A stretch of DNA of 64,000 nucleotides, taken from the IMG/VR virus record IMGVR_UViG_3300021375_001810, one strand, 5' to 3'. This stretch comes from a virus. Positions 1-3,254 of the stretch are shown here, piece by piece. The notes beneath the pieces are model-generated. The model did no database searches. It had not been told where the DNA came from and saw only the letters and a program-made list of their open reading frames with translations. Each line of letters opens with the position of its first letter. The stretch's first letter is position 1. Made by a program: the position numbers and the translations under genes.

Positions 1-95
1 ATTTGCGAGGTAAAGTTGATCTAAATCCTCCAACCGCATCAGCAAGTAACACTACAGTTACCATTACTGTTACAAGTGGAACTCTTAAGTCGAAC

Positions 96-308
96 TTAGG
101 CCCCTCCTCTATACACAGTACCACCTTTGGCAATGTGCATAATGTCACCACGACATAAACCTATGTCACGTAACTCATAATCTGTTAACTTCTGTAGGTC
201 GCTATAAACTTTTTTGTCATAGCTGGGCTTAATTGTTTTTTTAGTTGTCTTAAAAAAACTTTTAACTAACTCGCAAAAATTACAATATGTTAATGCTAGT
301 GTACTCAT
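96..308 (-). CDS. DUF1127 (YjiS-like) small protein
   Basis: Motif LQKLTDYELRDIGLCRGDI matches the DUF1127 L-x-x-L-x-D-x-x-L-x-DIG-L-x-R pattern. Start placed at ATG 308 (ATGA overlap with upstream stop). Confidence 0.8.
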   Translation of the reverse strand: MSTLALTYCNFCELVKSFFKTTKKTIKPSYDKKVYSDLQKLTDYELRDIGLCRGDIMHIAKGGTVYRGGA

Positions 309-517
309 TTGCCCCACCTCTCTTGTTCCATTGTTTTAAGATCCATCATAAGAGACTTTGCTGCTTCGTGATAGCCAGCACTAGCCAGTTGGCTTGCAGC
401 TCTTGCTGTACCAACATACTTTAATGTATAAGTTGTTTTTGCCCAAAGGCTATTTGCCTTTTTTGAAACCCATGCACAAAATGCACAGTAAAAAGTGTTT
501 ATTGTTTGCGTAGTCAT
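305..517 (-). CDS. small hypothetical protein in DUF1127 operon
   Basis: ORF translationally coupled on both sides (TAATG and ATGA overlaps). Confidence 0.7.
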   Translation of the reverse strand: MTTQTINTFYCAFCAWVSKKANSLWAKTTYTLKYVGTARAASQLASAGYHEAAKSLMMDLKTMEQERWGK

Positions 518-705
518 TATACCCATCCTTCTAAGTTTTGGTTTGTTAAGTGTGTTCTCGGCGGTGCCTTTCCGTCATGAGTAATCATGTACTCGTACGC
601 ATATCTCCAGTCACTTCCGTATTCTGTTTTTGCCCATACTTGGTAGTCGTGATTGGATGTCTTAGATCCAAACAAATACCGTAGGACTTTATTCACCTTT
701 TTCAT
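517..705 (-). CDS. small hypothetical protein, first gene of DUF1127 operon
   Basis: 62-aa ORF with AGGAG SD upstream on the minus strand. Confidence 0.7.
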   Translation of the reverse strand: MKKVNKVLRYLFGSKTSNHDYQVWAKTEYGSDWRYAYEYMITHDGKAPPRTHLTNQNLEGWV

Positions 706-733
706 AGTGATCTCCTGTATCTAATGTTGTGGA

Positions 734-861
734 TGCTTGAGGAAAGCAATACCCCCTGTCTTTTCAGGGCGTCAGTGGTCTTTTCCACCGTCAATGTCGC
801 TTTGGACATCGTCAATTGCTGATTTAGGAGTGCTTTCAACTCCCCGGTCTATCCCAGTGTC
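734..861 (-). ncRNA. structured 5' leader or sRNA: tandem array of GAC-flanked hexaloop hairpins
   Basis: Three abutting UGACG+stem+6-nt-loop units (754-774, 775-793, 794-814) with different but fully paired stems, a fourth unit at 844-861, and flanking hairpins. Confidence 0.65.
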
Positions 862-926
862 TGTGTGTTTTTACAACCTAAGTTAGTATGGTGTAATTGC
901 TACTCCATTACTTTTTGTAACGCTTT

Positions 927-932
927 TATTTA
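927..932 (-). promoter_or_regulatory. T4-like late promoter (TAAATA) for the DUF1127 operon
   Basis: TATTTA on the + strand, upstream of the structured leader. Confidence 0.5.
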
Positions 933-1032
933 TCATAGTAGTTAATTTTTTTCAACTGTTTTGACGTCAAAAACGCCGATTTTCGCCACTTTTTTTGCAT
1001 ACACGTTATACTATTATTGCATACCTATATAA

Positions 1033-1070
1033 TTTACACAATCTTTACACGACTGTAATCTAATCTACAT
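1033..1070 (+). promoter_or_regulatory. Pho-box/OmpR-family-like 11-bp-spaced direct repeats
   Basis: TTTACAC at 1033 and 1044; CTGTAAT at 1053 and TCTACAT at 1064; upstream of porin-like and PiT-like genes. Confidence 0.35.
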
Positions 1071-1115
1071 CTTTTATTCGTTAAATAAAATCGATGAGGA
1101 CAGGTGTTCTCATTT

Positions 1116-1151
1116 ATTGTGAGCGATGGGGTAAAGCCATCAAGCAAGGAG
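1116..1151 (+). repeat. 36-nt leader repeat copy 1 (hairpin plus SD)
   Basis: ATTGTGAGCGATGGGGTAAAGCCATCAAGCAAGGAG; 34/36 identical to 1529-1564. Confidence 0.9.
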
Positions 1152-1157
1152 AAAAAA

Positions 1158-1469
1158 ATGAAAGCAATAATCACAGCAATAGTGATGTACATTGTAACGA
1201 CTACAGCCTATGCAGGACCGTATGTTGAATACAAGCACGAACACCAACACAAAGACTGGAAGTTTGACAAGAATACAGAACATCTACGTCTTGGATACAA
1301 GGCTAAAAACAACCTTTACTTTGAACTAGGACCAATGACAAACGGCTATAGTTACGAAGCAGGTTACAAAGTAAAATTAAATAGATTTACTTTTAAAGGC
1401 AAACTAGAAACAAAAGACACAGGCATATCCAAATCAAAGTTAGAAACGGAAATTCGATATAACTTTTGA
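1158..1469 (+). CDS. secreted small beta-barrel/porin-like protein
   Basis: SD AAGGAG then ATG 1158; signal peptide (MKAIITAIV...AYA); alternating beta-strand pattern; C-terminal YNF. Confidence 0.65.
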   Translation: MKAIITAIVMYIVTTTAYAGPYVEYKHEHQHKDWKFDKNTEHLRLGYKAKNNLYFELGPMTNGYSYEAGYKVKLNRFTFKGKLETKDTGISKSKLETEIRYNF

Positions 1470-1498
1470 TTGACAGTAACATTGGGTGATGTTACAGT
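1470..1498 (+). promoter_or_regulatory. sigma70-type promoter with palindromic spacer
   Basis: TTGACA-N17-TACAGT; inverted repeat GTAACAT/ATGTTAC spans the spacer. Confidence 0.55.
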
Positions 1499-1528
1499 TA
1501 AAAAGTAGTAAGCAATTTCGCTTACTAG

Positions 1529-1564
1529 ATTGTGAGCGACGGGGTAAAGCCGTCAAGCAAGGAG
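1529..1564 (+). repeat. 36-nt leader repeat copy 2 (hairpin plus SD)
   Basis: ATTGTGAGCGACGGGGTAAAGCCGTCAAGCAAGGAG; the two differences from copy 1 form one compensatory base pair. Confidence 0.9.
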
Positions 1565-1573
1565 TAATAAAAA

Positions 1574-2545
1574 ATGGAAGCACTCACTTTATGGAGCCTT
1601 GTAGGGTTCCTGTTCGCAGCATACGCTGTAATTGCCAACGACTCAGTACAGACTCTCGGTACATGGATGGCATCAAACAATGAGAGATTCAACTACAAAA
1701 CTTTATGGGCAGCCGCAAGTACAGTGTTACTTGCAACCCTTTGGTATGGTTGGAGTGTAAATGGTGGCGACATCAGTTACGGAAGACTTAACAGGATACC
1801 CTGGCAAGAAGTACAATGGTATCATGCAGCCGCACCGGCAATCCTAGTTGCACTAACAAGACTAGGTGTACCAGTATCAACTTCGTTCTTGGTCTTATCA
1901 GTATTTGCTTCAACTTTCGTGTTGGAGAAAATGCTTATGAAATCGATAATGGGTTACGGTGTAGCCGCAGGTTTTGCATACATGGTATGGTTTGCTATAA
2001 CAAAGTATGCAAACAGTTGGTTTGACGAAACAAAACCAGTAAGCGAAGACAACAAAAGGTTTTGGCGTATTGCACAATGGATAGCAACTGGTGGCTTGTG
2101 GTGGACATGGCTTAGTCATGACATGGCAAACATCGCTGTATTCCTACCACGTGTAATTCCTGTGGACTTAATGATTCTAATTAGTTTTGTTTTTGTAGCA
2201 GGCATGTTCTTTATGTTTAGAGAACGAGGCGGTAAGATACAACAAATTGTTCTAGAGAAGCATAATACAAAGTATGTAAGATCAGCAACACTAATTGATT
2301 TATTCTACTGGTTGTGCTTGTACTTCTTTAAAGAGCTTAACGATATTCCTATGTCAACAACTTGGGTGTTCGTTGGTCTACTTGCAGGACGTGAACTAGC
2401 AATGGCAACATACTATGGTAAGCAAAAGACCAAGAGTGTGTTTCCACTAGTAGCAAAGGACTTTGGTAAGATGATGGTCGGACTTGGTGCTTCAGTAGCA
2501 TTGGTTCTTATGATCCATTATATTATTCTTCCTAACGGACTTTAA
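1574..2545 (+). CDS. PiT/PHO4-like phosphate (or sulfate) permease
   Basis: Multi-TM protein with duplicated PiT-like signatures IANDSVQT...PVSTS and SHDMANIA...PMSTT. Confidence 0.65.
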   Translation: MEALTLWSLVGFLFAAYAVIANDSVQTLGTWMASNNERFNYKTLWAAASTVLLATLWYGWSVNGGDISYGRLNRIPWQEVQWYHAAAPAILVALTRLGVPVSTSFLVLSVFASTFVLEKMLMKSIMGYGVAAGFAYMVWFAITKYANSWFDETKPVSEDNKRFWRIAQWIATGGLWWTWLSHDMANIAVFLPRVIPVDLMILISFVFVAGMFFMFRERGGKIQQIVLEKHNTKYVRSATLIDLFYWLCLYFFKELNDIPMSTTWVFVGLLAGRELAMATYYGKQKTKSVFPLVAKDFGKMMVGLGASVALVLMIHYIILPNGL

Positions 2546-2552
2546 TACTATC

Positions 2553-2586
2553 AAAGGTTATGTTTAACGACATGACCTTTTCTTTT
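2553..2586 (+). terminator. intrinsic terminator
   Basis: AAAGGTTATGT/ACATGACCTTT stem followed by T tract. Confidence 0.7.
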
Positions 2587-2600
2587 GACTAATATACCGG

Positions 2601-2629
2601 TTGACAACACTATATTAGTAATGTATAAT
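2601..2629 (+). promoter_or_regulatory. sigma70 promoter
   Basis: Perfect TTGACA-N17-TATAAT. Confidence 0.85.
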
Positions 2630-2651
2630 ATACACATATACAGAGGAGATT

Positions 2652-3254
2652 ATGAATAAAGTGAGAAAAACAATACTAACAGACGCAGATGGTGTACTTC
2701 TTGATTGGGAATGGGCATTTACTATTTGGATGGAACAGCATGGTCATGAAAAGGTAAAAGGATACCAGTTCATGTATGATATTGGAGAACGTTACGGAAT
2801 AACTAAAGATCAAAGTAGAAAATTAGTTAAACTGTTTAACGAAAGTGCAAGTATTGGCTTCCTACCTCCTTTGAGAGATGCTATGTATTATGTAAAACGT
2901 TTACATGAAGAACATGGTTACGACTTTATCTGTGTAACAAGTCTAAGCAAAAACAAAGATGCTTGTGAGTTGCGTAAAATGAATTTACGTAAACTGTTTG
3001 GTAAGAGTGCATTTAAAGGATTTAAATTTTTAGATACTGGTGCTGATAAAGACGATGCACTTGCTAAGTGGAAAGACAGTGGACTATGGTGGTTAGAAGA
3101 CAAACCAGAAAACTGTGAAGCAGGACTTAAAGCAGGACTTAAACCTATCCTAGTTGAACATGGACACAACATGGGTAATAAGAATTCAGAAATTACAGTA
3201 TGTAAGAACTGGAAAGAAATTTACAACACAATTTTAGAAAGGGATAACGTTTGA
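2652..3254 (+). CDS. HAD-family phosphatase / 5'(3')-deoxyribonucleotidase-like
   Basis: HAD motif I DADGVL, VTS, K, and LEDK motifs. Confidence 0.75.

What the first reader, a model, noticed from the sequence alone, without database searches (positions are those of the whole stretch)
734..932. Tandem hairpin-array RNA leading a DUF1127 small-protein operon
Seen (minus strand): UGACG-AUGUC[CAAAGC]GACAU, UGACG-GUGG[AAAAGA]CCAC and UGACG-CCCUG[AAAAGA]CAGGG abut each other. Upstream are GACA-CUGG[GAUAGA]CCGG and GGAGU[UGAAAGC]ACUCC; downstream is UGCUU[UCCUC]AAGCA. Stems differ in sequence but stay paired while linker and loop are conserved, which points to selection on RNA structure. Known: alphaproteobacterial DUF1127 proteins (e.g. 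CcaF1) bind RNA and are co-transcribed with repeated sRNAs. Inference: a multivalent protein-binding leader or sponge for autoregulation or titration of a host RNA-binding protein.
Basis: partly seen in the sequence, partly recalled or inferred. Interest (0 to 1): 0.78.

Follow-up and report, generated by a model that had tools for sequence, protein, structure and literature searches.

The report
Conserved hairpin-array leader RNA of phage operon
The flagged hairpins are real. They belong to a conserved folded RNA leader, absent from Rfam, that sits in front of three tiny genes (one DUF1127) in large marine T4-type phages and probably sets how much of these proteins is made.

Summary
Observation confirmed. 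On the minus strand, 934-734 holds a late-promoter-like GATAAATA, two 5' hairpins, a CA-rich stretch and six hairpins (P1, P2, P3, P3b, P4, P5). An AGGAG ribosome site and three overlapping small genes follow: an 'AKTEYG' family, an 'RAAAEL' family and DUF1127.

The element is one copy of a widespread family:
- Its 23-nt 3' block occurs exactly in at least 120 IMG/VR contigs.
- A covariance model finds one copy in each of 97 of 99 related loci, and once in this window (68 bits).
- Across 89 distinct homologues, 95% of stem cells pair, against 31-42% when partners are slid. Eighteen of 31 pairs show compensatory double changes.
- G-U pairs place the structure on the gene's sense strand. No reading frame is conserved.
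- No Rfam 15 family matches.

The carriers are T4-type phages of about 350 kb. "Cyanophage" is not shown.

Best reading: a cis-acting leader whose one to four NAAAGA-hexaloop hairpins are protein-binding sites next to the ribosome site, perhaps for the operon's own products. That step is inferred; no binding or transcription was measured. The closest known system is the alphaproteobacterial DUF1127/'cuckoo' (CcsR) RNA loci, but the family's own tests fail. I call it a new variant of a known kind.

The parts
927..934 (-). T4-type late-promoter-like box GATAAATA (NATAAATA)
   Evidence: 100 of 108 distinct homologous upstream regions carry NATAAATA, and one more has only TAAATA (107 of 108). Only 5% of random 200-nt windows hold ATAAATA. 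In the window NATAAATA occurs 14 times on the + strand and 3 times on the - strand; most lie 14-100 nt before an ORF. The S-PM2 late-promoter motif NATAAATA is cited from PMC2984593. No transcription start was measured.
906..922 (-). P0a, 5'-proximal hairpin CGUUAC[AAAAA]GUAAUG
   Evidence: Local fold. Every homologue has a variable hairpin directly after the promoter box.
871..896 (-). P0b, second variable 5' hairpin
   Evidence: Local fold. It is present only in the window's closest relatives.
858..869 (-). Conserved single-stranded CA-rich block AACACACAGACA (type A 5' domain)
   Evidence: Conserved in all type A homologues. Type B homologues have a pseudoknot here instead.
844..857 (-). 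P1, CUGG[GAUAGA]CCGG, hexaloop hairpin
   Evidence: Helix 1: 98.4% of cells pair and all 5 pairs have changes on both sides.
827..843 (-). P2, GGAGU[UGAAAGC]ACUCC
   Evidence: Helix 2: 90.6% of cells pair and all 5 pairs have changes on both sides.
812..826 (-). J2/3 linker UAAAUCAGCAAUUGA. AGCAAU can pair with AUUGCU in the 5' half of P5 (alternative helix).
   Evidence: 90% of cells pair and all one-sided changes are compatible, but the partner strand does not vary, so this is unproven.
792..811 (-). P3, CGAUGUC[CAAAGC]GACAUUG
   Evidence: Helix 3: 95.4% of cells pair and 5 of 8 pairs have changes on both sides.
773..790 (-). P3b, CGGUGG[AAAAGA]CCACUG, an extra copy of the hexaloop module
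   Evidence: Present in a minority of homologues. Module number is 1-4 per leader, with 29 distinct stems.
751..772 (-). P4, AC.CCCUG[AAAAGA]CAGGG.GU
   Evidence: Helix 4: 94.7% of cells pair and 3 of 8 pairs have changes on both sides. Most homologues carry a GAAGU-loop version.
734..748 (-). P5, UGCUU[UCCUC]AAGCA, a pyrimidine-rich (anti-Shine-Dalgarno-like) loop, part of the 23-nt block at 754-732
   Evidence: The 23-mer is exact in at least 120 IMG/VR contigs. The stem does not vary, so covariation is uninformative. Loop variants are listed. P5 ends 20-32 nt before the start codon.
711..717 (-). Ribosome-binding site CAGGAGA of ORF1
   Evidence: Sequence. A GGAG-type site stands at this position in the homologues.
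517..705 (-). ORF1, 62 aa, 'AKTEYG-DW-YAY' small-protein family, no Pfam family
   Evidence: 202 representative clusters in 1.8 billion proteins. It is the first gene behind the leader in nearly all loci.
305..517 (-). ORF2, about 70 aa, 'GRARAAAELSRQGYH-EAKALM' family. Its likely start overlaps the ORF1 stop (TAATG).
   Evidence: A family HMM hits it at E 3.6e-19. The start is chosen from homologues.
96..308 (-). ORF3, about 70 aa, DUF1127. Its likely start overlaps the ORF2 stop (ATGA).
   Evidence: Pfam PF06568, 29.6 bits, above the cut-off. A family HMM gives E 2.5e-18. Overlap.

Best explanation
Window 934-706 (minus strand) is the promoter and the roughly 215-nt structured 5' leader of a three-gene small-protein operon: ORF1 'AKTEYG' family, ORF2 'RAAAEL' family, ORF3 DUF1127.

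Shown here:
- The leader belongs to a conserved RNA family of marine T4-type jumbo phages, one copy per genome.
- It has a fixed order of parts: late-promoter box, a 5' hairpin, a CA-rich block (or, in other phages, an H-type pseudoknot), P1, P2, one to three further hexaloop hairpins, P4, and P5 with a UCCUC loop. The ribosome-binding site and the start codon follow P5 by 20-32 nt.
- The stems covary, while loops and linkers are conserved.

Inferred:
- The repeated hairpins (C-G/G-U-closed stem with an NAAAGA hexaloop) are binding sites for a protein, most economically one of the operon's own small basic products.
- Binding on P3-P5 next to the ribosome site sets translation, and perhaps stability, of the translationally coupled operon (autoregulation).
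- A possible switch between P5 and a J2/3:P5 helix may be part of this.
For: Homologues:
- The exact 23-mer occurs in at least 120 viral contigs.
- Model R1 finds exactly one hit in each of 97 of 99 loci and one in the window (732-869 minus strand, 68.2 bits, E 1.7e-15).

Structure:
- 95.4% of cells pair, against 31-42% with slid partners.
- 18 of 31 pairs have changes on both sides.
- Covariation score 0.337 against 0.03-0.05 slid, and 0 of 500 shuffles reach it.

Sense-strand RNA:
- Frequent G-U pairs, for example 55 and 48 sequences at two pairs.
- No conserved reading frame, and core lengths fall in all three classes mod 3.

Recognition features:
- Unpaired columns are more conserved than paired ones (0.81 against 0.735).
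- Hexaloop modules number 1-4 per leader, with 29 distinct stems.
- Minimal homologues keep one hexaloop hairpin plus P5.

Linkage to the genes:
- The first ORF belongs to the AKTEYG family in nearly all loci. Loci found through that protein alone almost all carry the leader.
- Each gene family and the RNA occur once in the window.
- P5 ends 20-32 nt before the AUG, at the edge of a ribosome footprint.
- The stop/start overlaps TAATG and ATGA point to translational coupling.

Promoter.

Precedent: the DUF1127 protein CcaF1 binds RNA and is co-transcribed with repeated stem-loop RNAs (PMC8034643).
Against: - No binding, transcription or regulation was measured.
- ORF1, the gene directly behind the leader, has no known function and shows no profile similarity to DUF1127 (hhalign probability 0.2%).
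- DUF1127 proteins can also act by protein-protein contact, with PhoR (PMC12501420), so RNA binding by these phage proteins is not a given.
- P5 does not vary, and the alternative helix shows only one-sided changes.
- Thermodynamic folds leave the ribosome site about 42% unpaired on average and give no clear switch.
- One P5 loop variant (AACCAUA) lacks the anti-SD-like sequence.
Confidence: 0.55

Rival explanations
1. The leader mainly stabilises or processes the mRNA. The 5' hairpins and the compact hairpin array protect the late transcript from host 5'-end-dependent nucleases. Alternatively the leader is cut off to give a stable small RNA whose UCCUC loop acts in trans on Shine-Dalgarno sequences, as cuckoo/CcsR RNAs do.
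For: - A hairpin follows the promoter box directly in every homologue.
- The P5 loop UUUCCUC can pair with AGGAGA-type ribosome sites (sequence).
- CcsR RNAs next to DUF1127 genes carry anti-SD loops and are processed out of the mRNA by RNase E (PMC8034643).
Against: - Stability alone does not explain the conserved loops, linkers and CA block.
- There is no terminator or recognisable processing site between P5 and the ribosome site.
- Only one anti-SD-like loop is present, and one variant lacks it.
Confidence: 0.2
2. The leader is a riboswitch. The conserved junctions and loops form a ligand pocket, and the mutually exclusive P5 and J2/3:P5 helices are the expression platform.
For: - Loops and junctions are conserved while stems vary.
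- Type B homologues have an H-type pseudoknot with an A-rich loop.
- The alternative helix pairs in 90% of cells with compatible one-sided changes.
- Both states appear among minimum-free-energy folds.
Against: - P2-P4 are dispensable, and hexaloop hairpin number varies from 1 to 4. That is unusual for a single aptamer.
- No match to any Rfam riboswitch.
- The downstream genes give no hint of a metabolite.
Confidence: 0.12
3. The repeats act as DNA: spaced TGACG sites for a DNA-binding regulator between promoter and gene. The hairpins would be incidental.
For: TGAC(G) recurs at 19-21-bp spacing.
Against: - Compensatory changes keep the pairing, not the sequence, of the stems.
- Many G-U pairs would be A-C mismatches on the other strand.
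- The plus strand folds less exceptionally (z = -2.1 against -3.2).
Confidence: 0.03

Closest known systems
Cuckoo / CcsR (Rfam ar14) RNAs next to DUF1127 genes (CIN1 loci) in Alphaproteobacteria, e.g. ccaF1-CcsR1-4 of Rhodobacter sphaeroides (PMC8034643)
   Same: A small DUF1127 gene is co-transcribed with an array of repeated stem-loops, in the 5' or 3' UTR. One hairpin (P5) shows a pyrimidine-rich, anti-SD-like loop. The DUF1127 partner there binds RNA.
   Different: Cuckoo units are pairs of hairpins with CCUCCUCCC loops; here the repeated loops are NAAAGA and only P5 has UCCUC. No ar14 match was reported in cmscan of the window's first 3 kb or of 13 related loci. The setting here is a phage, the element is a single 5' leader with extra domains, and the first gene is a different small-protein family.
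Autoregulatory translational operators in phage and bacterial mRNA leaders (T4 gene 32 pseudoknot leader, ribosomal-protein leaders, MS2 coat-protein hairpin); from general knowledge
   Same: A structured, covarying leader is tied strictly to one operon, with hairpins close to the ribosome-binding site, and occurs once per genome.
   Different: The binder is unknown, the sites are repeated 1-4 times, and there is no sequence or model similarity to any of these.
Lambda N / boxB hairpins (GCCCUGAAAAAGGGC; recalled from memory, not tested)
   Same: Short G+C stems with purine-rich GAAA-type loops of the kind arginine-rich peptides recognise. P4 begins GCCCUGAAAA.
   Different: The loops are hexaloops, not pentaloops. 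There is no boxA, no N homologue was looked for or seen, and the context is translational rather than antitermination.
uORF-dependent attenuator leader of a Sinorhizobium meliloti DUF1127 gene (PMC12218461)
   Same: A DUF1127 gene controlled through its mRNA leader, with pairing between the ribosome site and a C-rich stretch.
   Different: That mechanism needs a translated uORF and premature termination. Here no reading frame is conserved in the leader, and the only terminator-like match in it is the weak P4 site.

Membership tests
Any Rfam 15 family (4227 models) | cmscan match at or near the gathering score | tested here: not met
   Window 1-3000: only Mu-gpT-DE at 18.3 bits (gathering score 49, E 0.71), which covers only P4 and the ribosome-binding site. 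In 13 homologous loci nothing was found at the element at E <= 0.1.
Cuckoo / CcsR / ar14 RNAs | Adjacency to and co-orientation with a DUF1127 gene (CIN1 context) | tested here: met
   DUF1127 is ORF3 of the operon. 32 distinct DUF1127 ORFs lie behind homologous leaders.
Cuckoo / CcsR / ar14 RNAs | Units of two hairpins, each with a CCUCCUCCC loop | tested here: not met
   The repeated loops are GAUAGA, GAAAGA, AAAAGA and CAAAGA. Only P5 has UCCUC, or the variants UCCUU, CCCUC and AACCAUA.
Cuckoo / CcsR / ar14 RNAs | Processing into stable sRNAs by RNase E | not testable with these tools
Riboswitch | One invariant aptamer architecture across members | tested here: inconclusive
   A core of 5' domain, one hexaloop hairpin and P5 is always present, but P2-P4 are optional and module number is 1-4.
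Riboswitch | Alternative pairing that serves as an expression platform | tested here: inconclusive
   The J2/3:P5 helix pairs in 90% of cells with one-sided changes only. Pairing probabilities are mixed.
Riboswitch | Ligand binding | not testable with these tools
   Needs in-line probing or a similar assay.
T4-type late promoter | A TATAAATA / NATAAATA box at the right distance upstream, strand-matched to the genes | tested here: met
   GATAAATA at 934-927. NATAAATA is present in 100 of 108 homologues. In the window it occurs 14 times on the + strand and 3 times on the - strand, mostly before ORFs. TATAAATA is depleted (2 found, 8.7 expected).
T4-type late promoter | A gp55-type late sigma factor in the phage, and a mapped transcription start | not tested
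   Only the Gp23 capsid protein was checked in a related 306-kb contig (E 2.3e-99).
DUF1127 (PF06568), protein ORF3 | Pfam match above the gathering score | tested here: met
   29.6 bits against 23.3, E 5.7e-7.
DUF1127 (PF06568), proteins ORF1 and ORF2 | Pfam or profile-profile similarity to DUF1127 | tested here: not met
   No Pfam hit. hhalign of ORF1 against DUF1127 gives probability 0.2%. ORF2 shares only a C-terminal extension module with some DUF1127 members. The language-model hits to DUF1127 clusters (0.77-0.79) are below the level to trust.

The most novel reading that the evidence does not exclude
The leader is a modular RNA operator. Each NAAAGA-hexaloop hairpin binds one copy of an arginine/lysine-rich small protein encoded just downstream (DUF1127 or its neighbours), so that hairpin number (1-4) tunes an autoregulatory threshold. 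This would carry the DUF1127/'cuckoo RNA' partnership from alphaproteobacterial chromosomes into jumbo phages and give the first defined RNA recognition element for this protein class.
Probability: 0.3. Interest if true: 0.8.

Novelty: new variant of a known kind. Interest (0 to 1): 0.62.

Why it matters
- DUF1127 proteins number in the tens of thousands, yet no RNA recognition element has been defined for them, and whether they act on RNA or on proteins is debated (PMC8034643, PMC12501420).
- This phage operon places a DUF1127 gene and two unknown small-protein families behind a strongly covarying, modular hairpin array. It offers a compact, directly testable RNA-protein pair: gel shifts, reporter fusions, and loop and compensatory stem mutants.
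- It adds a well-supported new structured RNA family, with two kinds of 5' domain (one a pseudoknot), to the few known for large marine phages.
- Even if the binder is not the operon's own product, the element is a clean candidate for an Rfam family.

Tried and rejected
- **Rfam.** No family matches. The weak CsrC hit in L025 lies about 1.2 kb away in coding sequence plus a terminator and is irrelevant.
- **GenBank phage collection.** No match for the leader, for ORF1, or even for a 583-aa protein of the window. This absence is uninformative and is not evidence of novelty.
- **RNAalifold on the MAFFT alignment.** It recovered only parts of P1 and P3 plus a spurious 3' helix. I replaced it with a hand-drawn structure and a covariance-model alignment.
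- **P1 loop pairing with the 5' half of P5.** The central position is mismatched in 48 of 87 sequences and does no better than controls. Rejected.
- **Ribosome-site sequestration by the P5 loop.** Predicted pairing probability is a mean of 0.18. Not established.
- **ORF1 as a hidden DUF1127.** Not supported.
- **AlphaFold model of ORF1.** Two helices, mean pLDDT 69. Too simple for a fold search to say anything.
- **Leader peptide.** No conserved frame.
- **"Cyanophage" label.** psbA is absent from five large related contigs. Only the Pfam name of the neighbouring OMP-like gene suggests cyanophage.
- **Literature.** No paper in the library holds the motif sequence, and none pairs cyanophage with DUF1127. 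The supplements of the 2023 catalogue of viral structured RNAs (PMC10690425) are not held, so the element may be listed there anonymously.

Full report
**1. What is in the window**

Read on the minus strand (coordinates), the region holds, in order:
- GATAAATA (934-927)
- two hairpins, P0a (922-906) and P0b (896-871)
- a CA-rich stretch, AACACACAGACA (869-858)
- P1, CUGG[GAUAGA]CCGG (857-844)
- P2, GGAGU[UGAAAGC]ACUCC (843-827)
- a linker, UAAAUCAGCAAUUGA (826-812)
- P3, CGAUGUC[CAAAGC]GACAUUG (811-792)
- P3b, CGGUGG[AAAAGA]CCACUG (790-773)
- P4, AC.CCCUG[AAAAGA]CAGGG.GU (772-751)
- P5, UGCUU[UCCUC]AAGCA (748-734)
- an A-rich spacer, the ribosome site CAGGAGA (717-711) and the ORF1 start codon at 705

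The one correction concerns the 'UGACG linker'. Its CG closes the next stem against the UG of the following UGAC, so each unit is closed by C-G and G-U pairs.

The RNA folds better than shuffles (z = -3.2). The other strand does so less (z = -2.1). Hexaloop hairpins of this kind are rare in the window: 7 against 1.7 +/- 1.4 expected, and three of them cluster here.

**2. The genes behind it**

Three small ORFs follow:
- ORF1, 705-517, 62 aa.
- ORF2, most likely 517-305. Its ATG overlaps the ORF1 stop (TAATG).
- ORF3, most likely 308-96. Its ATG overlaps the ORF2 stop (ATGA).

ORF3 is DUF1127, above Pfam's cut-off.

ORF1 belongs to a family with the motif AKTEYG-DW-YAY. It has no Pfam family and 202 representative clusters among 1.8 billion proteins, all small.

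ORF2 belongs to a family with the motif GRARAAAELSRQGYH-EAKALM.

Each family occurs once in the window. Profile comparison does not tie ORF1 to DUF1127. ORF2 shares only a C-terminal extension module with some DUF1127 members.

**3. Homologues**

- Relatives of ORF1 in IMG/VR carry the same upstream element with different stem sequences.
- Loci fetched through the ORF1 protein alone, independently of the RNA, almost all carry the element. Some have variant P5 loops: AUUCCUC, UCCUU, CCCUC, AACCAUA.
- A covariance model built from 47 sequences and a hand-drawn structure finds exactly one hit in each of 97 of 99 loci. It finds one hit in the 64-kb window (732-869 minus strand, 68.2 bits, E 1.7e-15).
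- Among 185,579 species genomes, only three marine MAG contigs hold the 22-mer.

**4. Structure and covariation**

Results on the model alignment of 89 distinct sequences:

| Measure | Observed | Control |
|---|---|---|
| Stem cells forming standard pairs | 95.4% | 31-42% with partners slid 1-3 columns |
| Pairs with changes on both sides | 18 of 31 | not reached in 0 of 500 shuffles |
| Covariation score | 0.337 | 0.03-0.05 slid |

- P1 and P2 have double changes at all five pairs each. P3 has them at 5 of 8 and P4 at 3 of 8.
- P5 does not vary, so covariation says nothing about it. One divergent locus (L205) has a different stem, GGAUGC/GUAUCC, around a UUUCCC-containing loop.
- Frequent G-U pairs place the structure on the strand of the genes.
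- Unpaired columns are more conserved than paired ones (0.81 against 0.735).
- No reading frame is conserved, and core lengths fall in all three classes mod 3.
- The alignment was fitted to the structure, which favours pairing. The slid controls and the raw sequence listing show the same picture.

**5. Modularity**

- Leaders hold 1 to 4 hexaloop (N-A-N-A-G-N) hairpins with 29 distinct stems. The window has the maximum of four.
- Minimal homologues (L156, L163, L195) keep only a 5' domain, one hexaloop hairpin and P5.
- Two 5' domains exist. Type A, as here, has the CA-rich block. Type B has an H-type pseudoknot, GAGC-gaCCUCA-GCUC-A-rich-UGAGU, with covariation in both stems: G-C to A-U in stem 1, and C-G, U-A and A-U at one position of stem 2.

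**6. Possible switch**

The linker AAGYGAU (here AGCAAU) is complementary to AUUGCUU, the 5' half of P5. P5 and this long-range helix therefore exclude each other.

The helix pairs in 90% of cells, and every change on the linker side is compatible: C-G to U-G in 27 sequences, G-U to A-U in 12, A-U to G-U in 8. Its partner never varies, so this stays consistent but unproven. Predicted ensembles are mixed.

**7. Promoter and phage**

- NATAAATA precedes the element in 100 of 108 distinct homologues, against 5% of random 200-nt windows that hold ATAAATA. About half also have a sigma-70-like -35/-10 pair just upstream.
- In the window NATAAATA is strand-matched to the genes and mostly lies 14-100 nt before ORFs. 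TATAAATA is depleted.
- This matches the late-promoter motif reported for T4-type phages (PMC2984593).
- Related contigs are estimated at about 350 kb when complete. One carries a T4-type Gp23 capsid gene. None of five large contigs has psbA. The carriers are therefore T4-type jumbo marine phages with an unproven host, and 'cyanophage' rests only on a Pfam domain name.

**8. How it most likely works**

Shown:
- A conserved, sense-strand, non-coding structured leader.
- It is tied one-to-one to this operon.
- Its last hairpin stands 20-32 nt before the start codon.
- The genes are translationally coupled.

Inferred:
- The repeated hairpins, with conserved loops and a variable copy number, look like protein-binding sites rather than a single ligand pocket.
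- The strict linkage to the operon is the usual signature of autoregulation, as in ribosomal-protein leaders and T4 gene 32.
- The DUF1127 protein CcaF1 binds RNA (PMC8034643).

I therefore favour a multivalent operator for one of the operon's own small proteins (about 0.55 for the whole statement). The rivals are a stabiliser or processed sRNA (0.2), a riboswitch (0.12) and a DNA site (0.03).

One caution: DUF1127 proteins also act through PhoR by protein contact (PMC12501420).

**9. Comparison and novelty**

The closest known system is the cuckoo/CcsR (ar14)-DUF1127 locus of Alphaproteobacteria. It shares the gene context, the repeated stem-loops and one anti-SD-like loop. The defining CCUCCUCCC double hairpins and the Rfam model are not met.

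No paper in the library holds the motif sequence. A 2023 catalogue of more than 10,000 viral candidate RNAs drew on IMG/VR v3 and may list it anonymously; its supplements were not available.

I rate it a new variant of a known kind: a well-supported new RNA family whose function remains an inference.

Noticed in passing
window 1118-1151 and 1531-1564, + strand: A second conserved 5'-UTR motif, ATTGTGAGCGAYGGGGTAAAGCCRTCAAGCAAGGAG, sits directly before the ribosome sites of the OMP-like gene (1158) and the 323-aa membrane-protein gene (1574). The two copies differ by a compensatory C-G to U-A change in the hairpin GAYGG/CCRTC. There are exactly 2 copies in the window against 0 expected. The 24-mer occurs in 8 IMG/VR contigs, several of which also carry the leader.
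   Followed up: partly
related loci, e.g. L006, L014, L015, L029, L041, L108 (about 90-120 nt before the P5 block): Type B leaders replace the CA-rich block with an H-type pseudoknot: a GAGC/GCUC stem, a loop CCUCA that pairs with a downstream UGAGU, and an A-rich connecting loop. Both stems covary. No Rfam match.
   Followed up: partly
window 96-705 (-) and homologous operons: The small proteins are mosaics of shared short modules. Both ORF1-type and DUF1127-type proteins can end in the tail N-L-[KR]-G-[WS]-V. An extension YEPGDHYMRGK-VATWKGKAHA is shared by DUF1127 and RAAAEL members (hhalign probability 97%). ORF2- and ORF3-type proteins share an N-terminal T-YC-FC (CxxC) motif. This suggests common docking partners.
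   Followed up: partly
window, whole: TATAAATA is depleted (2 found, 8.7 expected). NATAAATA, mostly GATAAATA, occurs 14 times on the + strand and 3 times on the - strand, mostly 14-100 nt before ORFs. This phage's late-promoter box appears to be GATAAATA.
   Followed up: partly
L061, L039, L060, L027, L049 (their contigs, G002-G006): Contigs that carry the leader are estimated at about 350 kb when complete; 306 kb is rated 87% complete. None has psbA, and one has a T4-type Gp23 gene. The carriers are jumbo T4-type marine phages of unknown host.
   Followed up: partly
L207, L208, L209 (genome contigs): The leader's 22-mer occurs in three MAG contigs labelled Candidatus Neomarinimicrobiota (one contig of 335 kb) and Flavobacteriales. 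These are probably phage contigs binned with bacteria, but they could hint at the host.
   Followed up: no
about half of the homologous loci, just upstream of the NATAAATA box: A sigma-70-like TTGAYN-N17-TAnnnT pair lies just upstream of the late box in 50 of 108 leaders, against 1.5% of random windows. That is an early-plus-late double promoter. The window's own copy lacks it.
   Followed up: partly
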